Positions 10,875 through 24,508 of a stretch of DNA of 26,439 nt are shown in pieces. The first letter of the stretch is position 1, and every line of letters starts with the position of its first letter. Source of the DNA: a virus (lineage: Duplodnaviria > Heunggongvirae > Uroviricota > Caudoviricetes); the IMG/VR virus record IMGVR_UViG_2651869691_000005, one strand, 5' to 3'. Under the pieces are notes generated by a model, which saw only the letters and a list, made by a program, of their open reading frames with translations, did not search any database and was not told the origin of the DNA. A program made the translations under genes and the position numbers.

Positions 10875-11306
10875 GGAGTTTACTCACATCTGACAAAATC
10901 AATATAAACAGCCCCTCCGGAGAGGGGCTGGAGAGTGGCGCTATGTGCCATTGCATGGTGCCGGGTGCCTCCCGGTGAATTCAGTACCAGCACCTGAATC
11001 CGCGATTATCCCATATACCTACTCGCTGATTGCCCCTCCGCACAGGGGGATTCACCATGCCAGTTTCTTTTAACAAACTCCCCGCAAACCAGACAACAGT
11101 CAACCGCCTGAATTGTGAAGTATTTAAAAATTTCTCCGGCTAACAGTCTGGCGTTTTCTTTTTCAGCAACGGGAAAGCAACAACCACCACACCCGCCACC
11201 AGTACACAGTCAGCCAGCACTGACATTATCCGGCTGCTGCAATGCCATTCACAAAAACAGTAAGCAATCACTTTTTACCGTAACAGGTGATAATCCAGAT
11301 ATGTAT

Positions 11307-11770: not shown

Positions 11771-11847
11771 TGGCGCGTTGTACTGGATTCGAACCAGTGA
11801 CCGATTGCTTAGAAGGCAATTGCTCTGTCCGGCTGAGCTAACAACGC
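11771..11847 (-). tRNA. tRNA-Arg (anticodon UCU)
   Basis: Reverse complement GCGTTGTTAGCTCAGCCGGACAGAGCAATTGCCTTCTAAGCAATCGGTCACTGGTTCGAATCCAGTACAACGCGCCA folds as a canonical cloverleaf with a TCT anticodon, TTCGAAT T-loop and encoded CCA. Confidence 0.8.
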
Positions 11848-11944: not shown

Positions 11945-12020
11945 TGGTGGCCCTTGCTGGATTTGAACCAGCGACCTGGCGATTATGAGTCGCTCGCTCT
12001 CACCACTGAGCTAAAGGGCC
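11945..12020 (-). tRNA. tRNA-Ile2 type (anticodon CAU, ileX/ileZ-like; elongator Met cannot be excluded from sequence alone)
   Basis: Reverse complement GGCCCTTTAGCTCAGTGGTGAGAGCGAGCGACTCATAATCGCCAGGTCGCTGGTTCAAATCCAGCAAGGGCCACCA; canonical cloverleaf, closely resembling E. coli ileX as recalled. Confidence 0.8.
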
Positions 12021-16112: not shown

Positions 16113-16268
16113 TTACTCCTCAGGTTCGTAAGCTGTGAAGACAGCGACCTCCGTCTGGCCGGTTCGGATTCGTACCTCGCAGAGGTCTTTCCTCGTTACC
16201 AGTGCCGTCACTATGACGGTTAAACAGATGACGATCAGGGCGATTAACATCGCCTTTTGCTGCTTCAT
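16113..16268 (-). CDS. hok: Hok/Gef-family type I toxin (51 aa; HokD/RelF-like)
   Basis: Found by manual translation (below the ORF-track size cutoff): MKQQKAMLIALIVICLTVIVTALVTRKDLCEVRIRTGQTEVAVFTAYEPEE, matching Hok/Gef family sequence as recalled. SD AAGGAG 8 nt upstream. A 19-codon upstream ORF (from 16322-16324) ends in ATGA overlap with the hok start. Confidence 0.8.
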   Translation of the reverse strand: MKQQKAMLIALIVICLTVIVTALVTRKDLCEVRIRTGQTEVAVFTAYEPEE

Positions 16269-16526
16269 AGCCTGCTTCTCCTTGACCTTTCGGTCCGTAA
16301 GAGGCTAATCTCTATGTGTCGCATAGATATGGCCTCAGATTAATGTTAAGCGTCTTGCAGGACGCGTAATGTTAACTGGGGCTTTTCTCTATCTGCCTTT
16401 TGGTGTTCATGCCTGAGACAGATAGCCTCAAGCACCCGCAGTCATTCTACTTAACTAAGATTTCCCCGCAAACCGTTTTTGTCCGGCACAGTAAATATCC
16501 AACTAAACCAATGGCGTTCGCTGTAT

Positions 16527-16706
16527 TTACCGCCAGTATTCAATGCACATGACCGCCATGAACACCCCTAAAAAAAGGGCATTTATATGTCCAAACATTA
16601 ATATCAAAACATCAACTTTTTCCATATACCTTGCTGTGAAGATGATGGGCATACATGATGCGAACAACCAGAACGCAACAAACAAAAACTGCAATGCGTT
16701 TTTCAT
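16527..16706 (-). CDS. Hypothetical small membrane protein (59 aa, two predicted TM segments)
   Basis: Internal ATG 16704-16706 with strong SD (TAGGGGGAATAATG); MKNALQFLFVAFWLFASCMPIIFTARYMEKVDVLILMFGHINALFLGVFMAVMCIEYWR. Sits in an AT-rich segment directly upstream of the hok locus. Confidence 0.45.
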   Translation of the reverse strand: MKNALQFLFVAFWLFASCMPIIFTARYMEKVDVLILMFGHINALFLGVFMAVMCIEYWR

Positions 16707-17179
16707 TATTCCCCCTACAATCAATGTGCAATAACATTTAAACACACCTCAATTTAGCCGGACATATAAATATCTAAACCAGAAAAAATCACTTACATAG
16801 CGTTACAAACTCTTTAGTCTAAATATTCATCGCAAAACATTCCCCATACTTATCAGCCCGTTCTGCGCCAGGTAGCTCATTGCCTTATCTGGGAATCTGT
16901 AATCAGGTTTCCGGATGCTGGTGGATTTTCGCATTTTAGTTGTTCATAAAAGTGCACAGCTTTAACCAGTTCTTCTGATGTAACCGGGACTGGCGGGGCA
17001 GTGAATAAGGCCTGAATTTCATAGTTCGGCCTGTCGTTACAATCCTCTTTTTTCGGTACATATTTCCAGTCACCAGACCACTACTTCCCCTGAAAGTCCG
17101 TAACGCCTTTTTTTCACGTAGCGATATCGCCATGCCACTGTTTTTGCTTGCCCCGCCGTTTCATGCCCTTCCTGATAAT

Positions 17180-17365
17180 TAACCTCGCTCATTCATCGCC
17201 CCACTCATCACAATATGCTTCGACCGGAGTTTTTCCTGCTTCATAATCATCACGCCATGCTTCAGCATCAGCAGCACTGCCACCACGTAACTCTGCATAG
17301 TCCATTAACAGTTCATGCCATTCTTCAAAACCGACGTTGTATTTAGTTGAACCAAAATCAGCCAT
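17180..17365 (-). CDS. Hypothetical small acidic protein (61 aa)
   Basis: Manual translation from ATG 17363-17365 with strong SD (GAGGAAGAACAAAATG): MADFGSTKYNVGFEEWHELLMDYAELRGGSAADAEAWRDDYEAGKTPVEHIVMSGAMNERG. Not in the ORF track although it is above the apparent size cutoff; start overlaps the upstream gene stop. Confidence 0.4.
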
Positions 17366-17540
17366 TTTGTTCTTCCTCTTCGTCTTTTATTTCGTGATAT
17401 GAGTAATTGCAGTAGTTAAAGAAAATATCTTTTGCTTCGTCATGTATTTCATCAGGCGTCGCATCATCATCCACTTCGAATTCATCCTCGAAATCTCCAC
17501 CGGCTATTCCCGTTTCAATAATTATTTTAAACTTTCGCAT
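17358..17540 (-). CDS. Hypothetical highly acidic small protein (60 aa)
   Basis: ORF MRKFKIIIETGIAGGDFEDEFEVDDDATPDEIHDEAKDIFFNYCNYSYHEIKDEEEEQNG, preceded by the conserved SD-hairpin element. Confidence 0.45.
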   Translation of the reverse strand: MRKFKIIIETGIAGGDFEDEFEVDDDATPDEIHDEAKDIFFNYCNYSYHEIKDEEEEQNG

Positions 17541-17545
17541 TTAAC

Positions 17546-17570
17546 TACCGCCCTTTCGGGCGGCCTCCTG
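17546..17570 (-). promoter_or_regulatory. Hairpin-split ribosome-binding element, copy 1
   Basis: Minus strand reads TCAGGAGG-CCGCCC-GAAA-GGGCGG-TAGTTAA-ATG: an SD, then a 6-bp GC stem with GAAA loop, then the start codon of the 17358-17540 gene. Confidence 0.5.
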
Positions 17571-17596
17571 ATGTTCTGAGGGTGCAGAAATCCCTC

Positions 17597-17650
17597 CGGT
17601 TAAGGATTAAATTTTTAACAGAGCTAAATTTAATTATTCAGTTCTGGATT
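17597..17650. repeat. ~55-bp intergenic direct repeat, copy A
   Basis: CCGGTTAAGGATTAAATTTTTAACAGAGCTAAATTTAATTATTCAGTTCTGGATT aligns with copy B at 18861-18918 apart from small indels and substitutions. Confidence 0.5.
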
Positions 17651-17990
17651 TTGTCGCCCTGCGTATCCGCGCTTTCGCGTTACGCTCAATCTGAATTAGC
17701 TTTTCTATATTTTTTCGCCTTTCCCGCTCCTCCTGACGCAAGAGCCTTACATCATCTGCCAGTCTGGTTTCTCTTTTCGCCACAGAGAGCATCCAGTCAA
17801 ATGGTTCCACAACTGCACCGCAGATTTTACAGCGGACCTGACGCTCTTTTTCGTCAACCCGGACAGAGGCGTGATGACAATATGGTCTTTCCGATGGCTC
17901 ATAAAGAAAATTAACCTGATTACGAGGGTCATCCTCTTTTACCGGAAATAAAACGATATTGCTTAACTCATCCTCTGGTTTTATTTCCAT
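17634..17990 (-). CDS. Hypothetical zinc-ribbon-containing protein (118 aa from ATG 17990)
   Basis: Start ATG 17988-17990 with strong SD (AAGGAGAGGAGC). Contains PYCHH...CKICG; C-terminal basic coiled-coil-like segment. Confidence 0.5.
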   Translation of the reverse strand: MEIKPEDELSNIVLFPVKEDDPRNQVNFLYEPSERPYCHHASVRVDEKERQVRCKICGAVVEPFDWMLSVAKRETRLADDVRLLRQEERERRKNIEKLIQIERNAKARIRRATKSRTE

Positions 17991-18111
17991 GCTCCTCTCC
18001 TTTGATGCGAATGCCAGCGGTAATTGAAGCCTGATAGCTAATTTCACTCACAGTACCGCCTCCTGAAAATTTAATGAACAATTCAATACGTTCTTTGGTA
18101 ATAGTGGTCAT
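17968..18111 (-). CDS. Possible small ORF (47 aa)
   Basis: Manual translation from ATG 18109-18111 with SD AAGGAG 8 nt upstream: MTTITKERIELFIKFSGGGTVSEISYQASITAGIRIKGEEHGNKTRG. Overlaps the start of the downstream gene. Confidence 0.3.
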   Translation of the reverse strand: MTTITKERIELFIKFSGGGTVSEISYQASITAGIRIKGEEHGNKTRG

Positions 18112-18121
18112 GTGTTACTCC

Positions 18122-18385
18122 TTAACCCGCAGTGCTTTCAACTGATGAGGGGAACAAAATCTTTTCATCAAACCCTGCATTCATATCATGAACAGCAACA
18201 CACCAATCCATCGACGAACGATTATCAAGAGCCTCCATGATTTCATCCATGCGGCGTAGGTCATACAGGTAAATGCTTTTATCGCCAATGGTGTAAAAGC
18301 CAATTTTTTTCGGTGATGGACAGCGATCAAGAACTTCCTGTAATTCGTTCAACCATGCCCGTTCTTTTTTTGTCAAAGTTGCCAT
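18122..18385 (-). CDS. Hypothetical protein (87 aa)
   Basis: Internal ATG 18383-18385 with SD (TAAGGAAAACTGATATG), 1 nt after the upstream gene stop: MATLTKKERAWLNELQEVLDRCPSPKKIGFYTIGDK... Confidence 0.45.
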   Translation of the reverse strand: MATLTKKERAWLNELQEVLDRCPSPKKIGFYTIGDKSIYLYDLRRMDEIMEALDNRSSMDWCVAVHDMNAGFDEKILFPSSVESTAG

Positions 18386-18386
18386 A

Positions 18387-18605
18387 TCAGTTTTCCTTAT
18401 ACGGATTAATTTTATTGTGCAGTGTGTTGAATGACGCCCATACCACGTCGTTATACAATTCAGTAACTGGCTCAATTATTTTCCCGATTGCCCAGACAAA
18501 AATTAGAGGGGATATCGGTATCATCAATACGATAAACAGAATGAGAAACAAAAATTCTGTCGCCCTACTTTTTTGCGGATATTCTTTTCTGAATAATGTA
18601 GTCAT
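18387..18605 (-). CDS. Hypothetical small membrane protein (72 aa)
   Basis: ORF with one hydrophobic segment (FLFLILFIVLMIPISPLIFVWAIG); preceded by the second copy of the SD-hairpin element. Confidence 0.45.
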   Translation of the reverse strand: MTTLFRKEYPQKSRATEFLFLILFIVLMIPISPLIFVWAIGKIIEPVTELYNDVVWASFNTLHNKINPYKEN

Positions 18606-18609
18606 TTCT

Positions 18610-18635
18610 TACCGCCCTTTCGGGCGGCCTCCCGA
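18610..18635 (-). promoter_or_regulatory. Hairpin-split ribosome-binding element, copy 2
   Basis: Minus strand reads TCGGGAGG-CCGCCC-GAAA-GGGCGG-TAAGAA-ATG, the same core as copy 1, directly upstream of the 18387-18605 gene. Confidence 0.5.
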
Positions 18636-18637
18636 CA

Positions 18638-18850
18638 TTAATCGTTGTGGTAACTCATGGCTTCATTTGCAGCATCAACCGGATCAACCTCCCACCAGCA
18701 ATAATTTGGTGCGTTTCCTTCAGGTGTCCACGGTTCCAATTCATTTTTTGCCACATTCTCGTCGCCAGTAATTTTAAAAATCTGCTCAGAGAATTTTTTC
18801 ACCCACTCGTTATATTTTTCAGTGTTAATAATTTTCTGTGTATTTGACAT
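18638..18850 (-). CDS. Hypothetical protein (70 aa)
   Basis: ORF with strong SD (CTGGAGGTATATCTATG): MSNTQKIINTEKYNEWVKKFSEQIFKITGDENVAKNELEPWTPEGNAPNYCWWEVDPVDAANEAMSYHND. Confidence 0.45.
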   Translation of the reverse strand: MSNTQKIINTEKYNEWVKKFSEQIFKITGDENVAKNELEPWTPEGNAPNYCWWEVDPVDAANEAMSYHND

Positions 18851-18860
18851 AGATATACCT

Positions 18861-18918
18861 CCAGTTAAGGATTAAATTTTATTTACAGTGCTGAACTTAA
18901 TTATTCAGATTTGGATTA
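18861..18918. repeat. ~55-bp intergenic direct repeat, copy B
   Basis: CCAGTTAAGGATTAAATTTTATTTACAGTGCTGAACTTAATTATTCAGATTTGGATT; pairs with copy A at 17597-17650. Confidence 0.5.
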
Positions 18919-18955
18919 TGCTTTCTCTTCACGAAGTTCCGATTGTTAATTTGGC

Positions 18956-19378
18956 TCACAACAGCACCTTCTGAAAATTACCCTGATAGAAAGCCAGTAC
19001 ACGCTGCATAGCTTCGCTCTTCCGGCACTCGCTACAGATTATGTTTTGACGCCTGTCGTAGCGGCGTATTTCTCCGTCTGGTAATGGCCAGATAAGGTCA
19101 GGATCAACCACAGATGGTTTCTTCAGATTTGCCCTTGAGAGTTTTTTGCGGGCGTTTTGCCAGTCCTTACGCGCCTGTTCAGACGGGAATAACCCGTAAC
19201 CAGAGTTGTATACATCGCCACTGGCAACCAGCTCTCTGGCGAGAACACTCATCAGATATCTTGTCGCACCTGTCTTGGCTTCCAGTTGCCGTAACGTCTC
19301 GCGCCCACTCCGGCGTACTAGCTCAACAACCTGCCCTTTAATTTTTTCCCGCTCTTCTTGTGTAAATACTTTTGCCAT
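18956..19378 (-). CDS. Hypothetical protein (140 aa), possible HTH
   Basis: Start ATG 19376-19378 with SD GGAGG 6 nt upstream: MAKVFTQEEREKIKGQVVELVRRSGRETLRQLEAKTGATRYLMSVLARELVASGD... Confidence 0.5.
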   Translation of the reverse strand: MAKVFTQEEREKIKGQVVELVRRSGRETLRQLEAKTGATRYLMSVLARELVASGDVYNSGYGLFPSEQARKDWQNARKKLSRANLKKPSVVDPDLIWPLPDGEIRRYDRRQNIICSECRKSEAMQRVLAFYQGNFQKVLL

Positions 19379-19393
19379 AAGCGCCTCCGGCAA

Positions 19394-20164
19394 TCACTTT
19401 TCCGATACAACACGGCGGGAAGAATCAGTAATCTGTCGAACAATATCCCGGTGCTTGTTCAGCTCCCGCAGCGCGGCGCAGACTCGCTCCCACTTCTGAA
19501 CATCACTTTTCGCCCTGCGCAGCGCCAGGTTTGCCCTGCGCAGGGACGGAAAAATCAGCTCATCTGCTTGCGTTTCGGTAAACGATGGCAACGACTGCAC
19601 AATGTCCGCCACAGTTTCTGTTTTAATTTCTTCCTGTGTTGCGGCTTCCCGGCCTGGTAACGCAGCACCTGCTGGCTGAGGAAAGGCCTTACCATCACTT
19701 TCCGTTACCAGCGCGGCCTTCGGCTCTGCTGGTAAATTATCGCCCGGCATGCAGTAACGAAATTTACCGTTCTGATTAACGCGTGCCAGCCGCCCCGTTG
19801 CGGTTACCACCGCCAGCGTGGAAGCAACCTTGCGAGTACTGACACCGAACTTACCCGCCAGTTCCTCACACGTTTTAGCCCCATCCTGACCGATAAACTC
19901 AATCATCATGTCTGCGGTAACTTTTTGTTCGACCTCCCCGGTCAGCATATCCTGTGCTTCAGATTTTACTGGCCGCTCTTCGGTTACCCGGGATTCACCT
20001 TCGCCAGCCAGAAACCAGGTGTGACCAGTTTTATCAACGACGCCATTTCTTTTGAGTTCCCACAGCTCGTTGACAGCCTCTTCACGACTGATTCCAAGGC
20101 GAGCTGCCACCACATGTGAAGAGGCTTTTTTCAGTGCTTTCAGTGCGTCAGATACGGTTTCCAT
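19394..20164 (-). CDS. Hypothetical protein (256 aa) with two HTH-like segments
   Basis: ORF METVSDALKALKKASSHVVAARLGISREEAVNELWELKRNGVV... and a second HTH-like stretch (CEELAGKFGVSTRKVASTLAVVTATGRLARV). Located between the replication and nin-like genes. Confidence 0.55.
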   Translation of the reverse strand: METVSDALKALKKASSHVVAARLGISREEAVNELWELKRNGVVDKTGHTWFLAGEGESRVTEERPVKSEAQDMLTGEVEQKVTADMMIEFIGQDGAKTCEELAGKFGVSTRKVASTLAVVTATGRLARVNQNGKFRYCMPGDNLPAEPKAALVTESDGKAFPQPAGAALPGREAATQEEIKTETVADIVQSLPSFTETQADELIFPSLRRANLALRRAKSDVQKWERVCAALRELNKHRDIVRQITDSSRRVVSEK

Positions 20165-24450: not shown

Positions 24451-24508
24451 TTTCTGGTGACGTTTGGCGGTATCAGTTTTACTCCGTGACTGGTCTGCCG
24501 CCCTTTTT
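24451..24508 (+). ncRNA. dicF: DicF sRNA homologue
   Basis: TTTCTGGTGACGTTTGGCGGTATCAGTTTTACTCCGTGACTGGTCTGCCGCCCTTTTT matches the ~53-nt E. coli DicF sequence as I recall it, with one or two substitutions. Lies in a ~550-nt noncoding stretch of the early-left operon, as dicF does in Qin. Confidence 0.7.

What the first reader, a model, noticed from the sequence alone, without database searches (positions are those of the whole stretch)
17546..18635. Two small genes share a conserved hairpin-split ribosome-binding element
Upstream of two different small ORFs (starts at 17540 and 18605) the minus strand carries the same 22-nt core GGAGG-CCGCCC-GAAA-GGGCGG. An SD is followed by a 6-bp GC stem with a GNRA tetraloop and then the start codon 6-7 nt after the stem. 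Linearly the SD is ~23 nt from the AUG, too far for normal initiation; folding would bring it to about 7 nt, as described for some T4 genes. Conservation of the exact element in front of unrelated ORFs suggests a shared regulatory device such as structure-dependent translation, an RNase site or a protein-binding site.
Basis: seen in the sequence. Interest (0 to 1): 0.55.

Follow-up and report, generated by a model that had tools for sequence, protein, structure and literature searches.

The report
Portable hairpin-split ribosome-binding linker in prophages
Two small prophage genes are each preceded by the same "ribosome-binding site, tight hairpin, start codon" block. It is a widespread, apparently undescribed intergenic linker of E. 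coli lambdoid prophages that sits exactly where gene modules are swapped, and it probably lets whichever gene lands behind it be translated.

Summary
GGAGGCCGCCCGAAAGGGCGG occurs exactly twice on the minus strand (18632-18612 and 17568-17548), with none expected by chance. Start codons lie 6 and 7 nt after the stem.

The window is a Qin/Rac-type lambdoid prophage. The element lies in the early-right operon ahead of a DUF4014 gene and a DUF7167 gene.

It is not private to these two genes:
- The leader plus element occurs in 2613 of 5426 complete E. coli genomes.
- It precedes at least six unrelated gene families.
- It follows about ten different upstream genes.
- Homology between phages switches partner exactly at the element.

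So the exact identity reflects a shared mobile linker, not co-regulation.

On the RNA side:
- The 7-bp GNRA hairpin (-14 kcal/mol) forms with probability about 1 in 54 contexts.
- Variants are mostly C-to-U changes in the 5' arm that keep pairing; the 3' arm is almost invariant.
- No other Shine-Dalgarno (SD) sequence lies in the 6-9 nt spacers.
- DUF4014 homologues in other phages use the same start codon with an ordinary SD.

This fits a T4 gene 38-type split ribosome-binding site, but it is untested. Covariation statistics are not significant, and one downstream family (Q-like) carries its own SD.

Verdict: a new member of known kinds, of moderate interest.

The parts
18629..18632 (-). Copy 1: Shine-Dalgarno core GGAG. 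The fifth G (18628) is the first base of the stem.
   Evidence: GGAGG:anti-SD duplex -8.7 kcal/mol; GGAG -5.2.
18611..18628 (-). Copy 1: hairpin GCCGCCC-GAAA-GGGCGGU (7 bp including a closing G.U pair, GNRA tetraloop).
   Evidence: -14.4 kcal/mol. Pairing probability about 1 in all contexts.
18387..18605 (-). DUF4014 gene (72 aa). ATG at 18605-18603, 6 nt after the 6-bp stem. No SD-like sequence in the spacer TAAGAA.
   Evidence: Homologues in 933W, ES18, HK225, epsilon15 and D6 start at the same codon behind an ordinary SD.
18638..18850 (-). 70-aa ORF whose stop (18640-18638) lies 5 nt before copy 1. This is the 'type B' upstream context.
18851..18910 (-). Truncated copy of the conserved leader ahead of the 70-aa ORF. 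Its GGAGG (18862-18858) is an ordinary SD 7 nt from the ATG at 18850.
17565..17568 (-). Copy 2: Shine-Dalgarno core GGAG.
17547..17564 (-). Copy 2: hairpin GCCGCCC-GAAA-GGGCGGU.
17358..17540 (-). DUF7167 gene (60 aa). ATG at 17540-17538, 7 nt after the 6-bp stem. No SD-like sequence in the spacer TAGTTAA.
17541..17633 (-). 'Type A' conserved non-coding leader that ends in copy 2. It contains hp1 (17641-17624, overlapping the upstream stop codon), an A/T-rich stretch, an orphan GGAGGG held in hp2 (17596-17578), and then SD plus hairpin.
   Evidence: The 70-nt leader plus element is in 2613 of 5426 E. coli genomes.
17569..18610 (-). The roughly 1.06-kb four-gene cassette bounded by the two direct copies. 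The same spacing (1063-1064 bp) recurs in four other loci. In ArgO145 the partners on either side of the element are exchanged.

Best explanation
The element is a portable intergenic linker of Rac/Qin-type lambdoid prophages, and it acts at two levels.

Shown: on the DNA, the conserved block of 21-27 bp (TCR-GGAGGCCGCCCGAAAGGGCGG-TA) is the point at which upstream and downstream gene modules have been re-assorted. The same element joins about ten upstream genes to at least six unrelated downstream gene families, and homology between phages switches partner exactly at it. This is what homologous recombination at a short conserved boundary sequence would produce. These prophages carry RecT/Red-type recombinases.

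Inferred: on the early-operon mRNA, GCCGCCC-GAAA-GGGCGGU folds into a very stable hairpin wedged between a GGAG Shine-Dalgarno and the start codon. The 30S subunit pairs with GGAG while the hairpin loops out. That shortens the SD-AUG distance from 22-23 nt to about 5-9 nt, as in the split ribosome-binding sites of T4 genes 38 and 25.

Because the hairpin folds the same way whatever follows it, the block would give a ready-made, context-insulated ribosome-binding site to any ORF recombined in behind it.
For: Recombination junction:
- Two upstream contexts are each joined to several downstream families. Leader type A: DUF7167 67, DUF4014 24, Ea22-like 29, Q-like 10, a 43-aa family 5, a 66-aa family 1. 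Type B (70-aa ORF): DUF4014 25, DUF7167 2, Ea22-like 6.
- Window against ArgO145: upstream identity 95-100% with one copy, downstream identity 82-100% with the other copy, and 15-45% otherwise. The partners are swapped reciprocally at the element.

Translation role:
- A start codon with an ORF of at least 25 aa follows within 4-13 nt in 169 of 186 copies.
- The spacer is 6-9 nt in the families that have no SD of their own, and 11 nt only in the Q-like family, which does have one.
- The spacers contain no GGAG, GAGG or AGGA.
- DUF4014 homologues elsewhere use the same start codon with an ordinary SD 5-8 nt upstream. So an SD function has to be supplied here.
- The hairpin pairs with probability 0.93-1.00 in 54 contexts, and GGAG is about 50% unpaired.

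Sense-strand RNA constraint (samples anchored outside the hairpin):
- 5' arm 6.4% variable, almost all C-to-U or G5-to-A changes that keep pairing. 3' arm 0.8%. GGAG 0 of 76.
- Type B sample: 112 of 124 copies exact, no change in the 3' arm.
- Loop variants GGCA and GAGA remain GNRA. One G-C pair became A-U.

Precedent: T4 gene 38 (22 nt reduced to 5) and gene 25 (27 reduced to 11), confirmed by mutagenesis and probing (PMC3014915).
Against: - No expression data exist for these genes.
- The covariation test is not significant. Paired cells are 95.1% against a shuffled mean of 95.1%, with only one compensatory pair.
- The sequences are closely related and redundant, so the asymmetry between the arms could partly reflect strand-biased C-to-T mutation.
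- The hairpin is no better conserved than the neighbouring 20 nt.
- The Q-like family has its own GGAG 7 nt before the ATG, downstream of the hairpin.
- In one context no forward gene follows at all.
- 8 of 124 type-B copies have an altered SD core (GGAUG or GGGGG).
- The A/U-rich spacers could support SD-independent initiation.
- In the consensus fold, part of GGAG can pair with an upstream UCC.
Confidence: 0.5

Rival explanations
1. The block is only a recombination linker or scar. It is conserved because it is repeatedly copied by exchange. The hairpin has no role in initiation, or at most protects the upstream message from 3' exonucleases. The downstream genes would then be translated weakly through their A/U-rich spacers or by re-initiation after the upstream ORF.
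For: - The breakpoints coincide with the element.
- Its conservation equals that of the flanking leader.
- The Q-like family brings its own SD, and the element also occurs next to a reverse-oriented insert with no forward gene.
- Covariation is not significant.
Against: - Five of six downstream families have no SD of their own, and their spacers fall in the narrow 6-9 nt range.
- The same DUF4014 start codon has an ordinary SD in other phages.
- GGAG is invariant in 76 of 76 leader-anchored copies.
- Arm variation is asymmetric in the direction expected for a sense-strand RNA stem.
- Loop changes keep GNRA.
Confidence: 0.27
2. The hairpin is a negative element. It holds the SD too far from the AUG and sequesters the SD-like 3' arm (GGGCGGU). 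Small accessory or toxic proteins would then be made at a low level, or only when the stem is melted, for example by a ribosome reading through from upstream.
For: - If free, the 3' arm GGGCGGU would pair with the anti-SD (-5.9 kcal/mol) at an ideal 5-6 nt spacing, but it is locked in a -14 kcal/mol stem.
- In type B the upstream stop codon is only 5 nt from GGAGG.
- The downstream genes are small accessory genes of unknown function.
Against: - In type A a 93-nt untranslated leader precedes the element, so no upstream ribosome can melt the stem.
- A strong GGAG placed immediately 5' of the stem is unexplained by pure repression.
- The precedent with the same dimensions (T4 gene 38) is an activator.
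Confidence: 0.12
3. The GNRA hairpin is a recognition site for a protein or a nuclease. Candidates are a boxB-like site for an antiterminator or translational repressor, a processing site, or the target of a site-specific recombinase or homing enzyme that moves the cassettes.
For: - A GC stem with a GNRA loop resembles lambda boxB in outline (my own knowledge).
- The 3' arm and loop are nearly invariant.
- HNH endonuclease genes lie nearby in ArgO145 and HK225.
- Direct copies bound a 1.06-kb cassette.
Against: - No gene is consistently linked to the element across its many contexts.
- It lies mid-operon, in one or two copies, not promoter-proximal as nut sites are.
- Seven base pairs is too short for RNase III (established knowledge).
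- No Rfam family matches.
- Junctions occur on both sides of the element, as expected for homologous exchange rather than cleavage at a fixed site.
Confidence: 0.08

Closest known systems
Split (structure-bridged) translation initiation regions of phage T4 genes 38 and 25
   Same: An SD lies too far upstream of the AUG (22 and 27 nt in T4; 22-23 nt here). A stable intervening hairpin reduces the distance to 5-11 nt (PMC3014915). The hairpin here (18 nt) is about the size of the T4 gene 38 one.
   Different: - The sequences are unrelated and the phage group differs (temperate lambdoid prophages).
- Here one and the same cassette serves at least six different genes and moves between contexts, whereas the T4 cases are gene-specific.
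- Function is demonstrated for T4 and only inferred here.
PeSL (promoter-early stem-loop) regulatory cassettes of T4-type phages RB49 and phi1
   Same: Both are repeated intergenic cassettes that begin at the upstream stop codon in an A/T-rich stretch, contain a G/C-rich stem-loop, and end in the SD and start codon of a small accessory gene. Recombination between copies shuffles, deletes and replaces gene modules (PMC2839356).
   Different: - PeSLs carry a strong sigma-70 promoter, and their stem-loop terminates transcription.
- No promoter-like or terminator-like site is found here, and no U-tract follows the stem.
- The element lies inside a long early operon.
- In PeSLs the stem-loop is not placed between the SD and the AUG.
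Short conserved boundary (linker) sequences proposed for modular exchange in lambdoid phages (the concept, with its two sources, is cited in PMC3029335; Susskind-Botstein and Clark et al. 2001 on HK620 are my recollection of those sources)
   Same: The phage group and the idea are the same: short homologous sequences at gene boundaries serve as crossover points between otherwise unrelated modules.
   Different: - I could not read the original paper.
- At BLAST sensitivity this element was found in about 21 of 50,697 phage records. HK620, P22, lambda and 933W were not among them.
- It is therefore probably a different sequence from the published ones.
- It also has a specific RNA anatomy.

Membership tests
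Split / structure-bridged SD initiation region (T4 gene 38/25 type) | An SD complementary to the 16S 3' end lies more than about 13 nt upstream of the start codon. | tested here: met
   GGAG(G) lies 22-23 nt from the ATG. Duplex energy -8.7 kcal/mol for GGAGG and -5.2 for GGAG.
Split / structure-bridged SD initiation region (T4 gene 38/25 type) | The intervening sequence forms a stable local hairpin that brings the SD to about 5-11 nt from the AUG. | tested here: met
   7-bp GNRA hairpin, -14.4 kcal/mol, pairing probability about 1 in 54 contexts. Residual spacer 6-9 nt.
Split / structure-bridged SD initiation region (T4 gene 38/25 type) | No ordinary SD lies at normal spacing. | tested here: met
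   Met for both window genes and for five of six downstream families. Not met for the Q-like family, which has GGAG 7 nt before its ATG.
Split / structure-bridged SD initiation region (T4 gene 38/25 type) | The structure is conserved in evolution, with pair-preserving changes. | tested here: inconclusive
   31 one-sided pair-preserving cells, 1 compensatory and 12 broken. The shuffle control is not significant. The asymmetry between the 5' and 3' arms is suggestive.
Split / structure-bridged SD initiation region (T4 gene 38/25 type) | Stem-disrupting mutations lower translation, and compensatory ones restore it. | not testable with these tools
   Needs reporter fusions, toeprinting or structure probing.
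Boundary / linker sequence for modular exchange | A short conserved sequence lies between non-homologous modules, in many combinations. | tested here: met
   About 10-12 upstream families and at least 6 downstream families. All four combinations of A/B with DUF4014/DUF7167 occur.
Boundary / linker sequence for modular exchange | Homology breakpoints between genomes coincide with the sequence. | tested here: met
   Window against ArgO145: identity switches at the 21-mer on both sides.
Boundary / linker sequence for modular exchange | Recombination at the sequence is observed directly. | not testable with these tools
   Needs phage crosses or PCR for deletions and circles.
PeSL-type regulatory cassette | A sigma-70 promoter lies within the cassette. 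| tested here: not met
   No promoter-like site in or near either copy or the leader.
PeSL-type regulatory cassette | The stem-loop acts as a transcription terminator. | tested here: not met
   No terminator-like call at either copy. The stem is followed by UAAGAAAUG or UAGUUAAAUG, not a U-run. Activity itself was not tested.
Intrinsic terminator | A G+C-rich hairpin is followed by a U-tract. | tested here: not met
   The same holds for the opposite strand.
Any curated RNA family (Rfam 15) | A match to a covariance model. | tested here: not met
   No relevant hit in 16500-19500 at E <= 5 or in the whole window at gathering score.
lambda-type nut site (boxA/boxB) | A promoter-proximal boxA plus a 5-bp stem with a GNRA-like pentaloop, together with an N protein. 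| not tested
   Anatomy only: a tetraloop, a mid-operon position, one or two copies, no conserved boxA in the leader alignment, and no N homologue annotated. No dedicated test was run.

The most novel reading that the evidence does not exclude
The leader plus hairpin is a dedicated 'plug-and-play' cassette adaptor of E. coli lambdoid prophages. It would be a standardised, context-insulated ribosome-binding site that is also a preferred crossover site for phage RecT/Red-type recombinases, perhaps through excised circles as with PeSLs. Prophages would then capture, swap and immediately express accessory genes through one conserved signal, functionally analogous to integron attC plus Pc but working by homologous exchange.
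Probability: 0.15. Interest if true: 0.7.

Novelty: new member of a known kind. Interest (0 to 1): 0.45.

Why it matters
If the hairpin really bridges the SD to the AUG, this would be the first widespread, multi-gene example of a split ribosome-binding site. The known cases are single T4 genes. It would also be a natural "standard part" that makes translation independent of the downstream coding sequence.

Whether or not that holds, the element gives a concrete, sequence-defined crossover point for the mosaicism of lambdoid prophages. It is present in about half of complete E. coli genomes. That makes the old boundary-sequence hypothesis directly testable. It also bears on gene-start annotation for many small prophage ORFs.

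Tried and rejected
- Chance repeat: rejected (0 expected).
- Intrinsic terminator or promoter: the scan is negative at both copies and in the leader.
- Known RNA family: none.
- The sequence in the literature: no paper holds the 16-18-mers in either orientation. Searches on DUF4014, DUF7167 and L0067 gave nothing relevant.
- Other genera via a protein-anchored scan of species genomes: only two loci, E. coli and Shigella.
- K-12 as a test bed: Rac, Qin and DLP12 lack the element.
- Formal covariation support for the hairpin and for leader hairpins hp1 and hp2: not significant. I first read one hp2 variant (L060) as compensatory; the pair count shows it is U.U, and I withdraw that reading.
- A hidden peptide ORF across the leader or element: no usable start codon in any frame that runs through the hairpin, and indels occur in the leader. 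Rejected.
- Other, independent SD-hairpin-ATG designs in the 182 loci: none stood out.
- The exact 21-mer in a P2-like contig (L039): it lies inside the terminase small-subunit coding sequence and is not a ribosome-binding site.
- Pas sRNAs of EPEC prophages: they map to the late region, not here.

Full report
**1. The observation**

On the minus strand the 21-mer GGAGGCCGCCCGAAAGGGCGG occurs at 18632-18612 and 17568-17548. There is no further copy with up to three mismatches, and none in 100 dinucleotide shuffles. Identity runs on to ...GGTA.

The ATG of a 72-aa ORF (18605) follows 6 nt after the 6-bp stem. The ATG of a 60-aa ORF (17540) follows 7 nt after it. An in-frame TAA precedes each ATG.

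ViennaRNA folds GCCGCCC-GAAA-GGGCGGU as a 7-bp stem, with the last G of GGAGG pairing with the U. The hairpin alone has -14.4 kcal/mol.

**2. Where it is**

The window is 99.4% identical to a prophage of E. coli O111:H2 strain 12A. It is a Qin/Rac-type lambdoid prophage: dicB, ydfC, DicF, hokD/sok, RusA, a Q-like gene, lysis genes and head genes.

Both copies lie in the early-right operon, between the replication genes and hokD/RusA/Q. This corresponds to the nin region. Copy 1 sits 5 nt after the stop of a 70-aa ORF and precedes a DUF4014 gene. Copy 2 ends a 93-nt non-coding leader and precedes a DUF7167 gene.

The other genes of this stretch have ordinary SDs 6-8 nt from their starts, or directly abutting it at 17990.

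**3. It is a widespread, mobile linker**

The nearest upstream ORFs fall into about ten to twelve families and the downstream ORFs into at least six:
- DUF7167
- DUF4014
- a heterogeneous Ea22-like group
- a Q-family antiterminator
- a 43-aa family
- a 66-aa family

These occur in some 25 combinations.

There are two upstream contexts:
- Type B: the 70-aa ORF.
- Type A: a leader of about 95 nt that starts at the upstream stop codon. It has a weak A/T hairpin, an A/T-rich stretch, an orphan GGAGGG held in a second hairpin, and then SD plus hairpin.

Both contexts are found joined to DUF4014, DUF7167 and Ea22-like genes.

The comparison of the window with phage ArgO145 is the cleanest case. Each window copy shares its upstream flank (95-100%) with one ArgO145 copy and its downstream flank (82-100%) with the other. 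Identity falls to 15-45% on the wrong side. The junction is the element itself.

The 70-nt leader plus element is present in 2613 of 5426 complete E. coli genomes, at up to seven places per genome. Among 50,697 phage records it appears in only about 20. These are induced Rac-like phages, mEp460 and ArgO145-type Stx2a phages. Lambda, P22, HK620 and 933W do not have it. K-12's Rac, Qin and DLP12 lack it too. That may be why it has escaped notice. No paper in the library contains the sequence.

**4. Is the hairpin an RNA element?**

I took samples anchored outside the hairpin so that they are unbiased for it.

| Sample | Exact copies | GGAG | 5' arm | Loop | 3' arm | Adjacent 20 nt |
|---|---|---|---|---|---|---|
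| 76 leader-anchored copies | 46 | 0% variable | 6.4% | 2.6% | 0.8% | 4.7% |
| 124 type-B-anchored copies | 112 | 8 copies changed | 3 copies changed | 1 copy changed | none changed | not measured |

In the first sample the 5'-arm changes sit at G5 (to A, giving A-U), C9 (to U) and C11 (to U). All three keep pairing. In the second sample the GGAG changes are GGAUG (6 copies) and GGGGG (2 copies).

Loop variants GGCA and GAGA are still GNRA. One G-C pair became A-U, with A.C intermediates also present.

Tolerating C-to-U in one arm but not G-to-A in the other is what a sense-strand RNA stem predicts.

The caveats matter. The sequences are close relatives. The formal shuffle control shows no excess pairing or covariation. 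The hairpin is not better conserved than its flank. I therefore call the structural constraint suggestive, not proven.

All common variants remain at -9 to -14 kcal/mol. The hairpin forms with probability 0.93-1.00 in 54 different sequence contexts.

**5. Does it serve translation?**

Points for:
- 169 of 186 copies are followed within 4-13 nt by a start codon opening an ORF of at least 25 aa on the same strand.
- In families without an SD of their own the spacer is 6-9 nt. This is the normal SD-AUG window once the hairpin is looped out.
- These spacers contain no GGAG, GAGG or AGGA.
- The only other SD-like sequence, the 3' arm GGGCGGU, is locked in the stem.
- DUF4014 homologues in 933W, ES18, HK225, epsilon15 and D6 start at the same codon behind an ordinary SD, with no hairpin. 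The start assignment is therefore sound, and an SD function must be supplied in the hairpin contexts.
- The dimensions match T4 gene 38 (22 nt reduced to 5). For that gene and for gene 25, mutagenesis and probing showed that the structure enhances initiation (PMC3014915).

Points against:
- The Q-like family has its own GGAG 7 nt before the ATG, after the hairpin.
- In one context the element abuts a reverse-oriented A/T-rich insert with no forward gene.
- A few copies have damaged SD cores.
- A/U-rich spacers might allow SD-independent initiation.
- There are no expression data.

**6. Best explanation and rivals**

The recombination-junction property is shown. I give about 0.9 that the element marks real mosaic breakpoints. 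Whether that is a selected function or a by-product of conservation is open.

The split-SD role is an inference, which I put at roughly even odds. Taken together, I give 0.5 to the "portable split ribosome-binding linker". The rivals are:
- linker only, with a neutral or message-stabilising hairpin (0.27)
- a negative, attenuating hairpin (0.12)
- a protein or nuclease recognition site (0.08)

**7. Comparison with what is known**

In mechanism it works like the T4 gene 38/25 split initiation regions.

In genome dynamics it works like the PeSL cassettes of RB49/phi1 (PMC2839356) and like the boundary sequences proposed for lambdoid phages (PMC3029335).

It is not a PeSL, because it has neither promoter nor terminator. 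It matches no Rfam family. I rate it a new member of known kinds. The new aspect is that a single split-SD block serves many genes and coincides with the crossover point.

**8. Limits**

- All collection scans were capped at 120 loci.
- The loci are redundant E. coli prophages.
- The counts of upstream families rest on a crude ORF rule.
- Clark et al. 2001 could not be read.

Noticed in passing
window 17541-17641 (-); also L-series loci, alignment A3: A conserved non-coding leader of about 95 nt runs from the upstream stop codon to the element. It contains an 'orphan' GGAGGG that pairs with CCCUC (hp2) and has no start codon after it. An alternative AAUCC/GGAUU pairing also exists. In the consensus fold, UCC pairs with GGA of the functional SD. 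Its role is unknown, and covariation is not significant.
   Followed up: partly
window 18851-18910 (-): A truncated copy of the same leader precedes the 70-aa ORF. There its GGAGG is an ordinary SD 7 nt from the ATG. This suggests that the full leader arose by loss or replacement of an ORF between two SDs.
   Followed up: partly
L039:11452-11487; L187:336-365; L188:305-332: P2-like phages carry the same hairpin GCCGCCC-GNRA-GGGCGGC inside the 5' coding region of the terminase small-subunit gene (codons A-A-R-K/Q-G-G). The loops are GAAA, GGCA and GACA and the stems are unchanged, although overall identity is only 73-75%. L039 matches the lambdoid block at about 33 of 36 nt. This could be the source of the lambdoid element, or a functional structure in its own right.
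   Followed up: partly
six type-B-anchored copies (locus ids not recorded): In the variant GGGATGCCGCCC..., the G-to-T change destroys the SD core and creates an ATG. That ATG is in frame with the downstream start (ATG CCG CCC GAA AGG GCG GTA ATA AAA ATG) with no stop between, so the hairpin would become coding in those copies.
   Followed up: no
L075:12034-12350; L152; L177: Directly after GGGCGG lies an A/T-rich segment with no forward ORF, probably a reverse-oriented moron. Two of the three representative copies inspected (L152, L177) have the loop changed to AAAA.
   Followed up: partly
window 10900-11089 (-), 16266-16437 (-), 24452-24503 (+), 11774-11847 (-) and 11948-12020 (-): Rfam gathering-score hits: STnc100 sRNA, the sok antitoxin RNA next to hokD, DicF, and two tRNAs. 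All are ordinary features of this prophage type.
   Followed up: no
PP818812.1 (hits H13, H42, H116): 'Actinobacillus phage vB_Apl-pPE4' carries a leader and element 97-100% identical to the E. coli prophage sequence. The host assignment of that record looks doubtful, or the transfer is very recent.
   Followed up: no
window 18313-18771 (+): A 152-aa GTG ORF lies antisense to the 70-aa and DUF4014 genes and spans copy 1. It is not annotated in RefSeq and is probably spurious.
   Followed up: no
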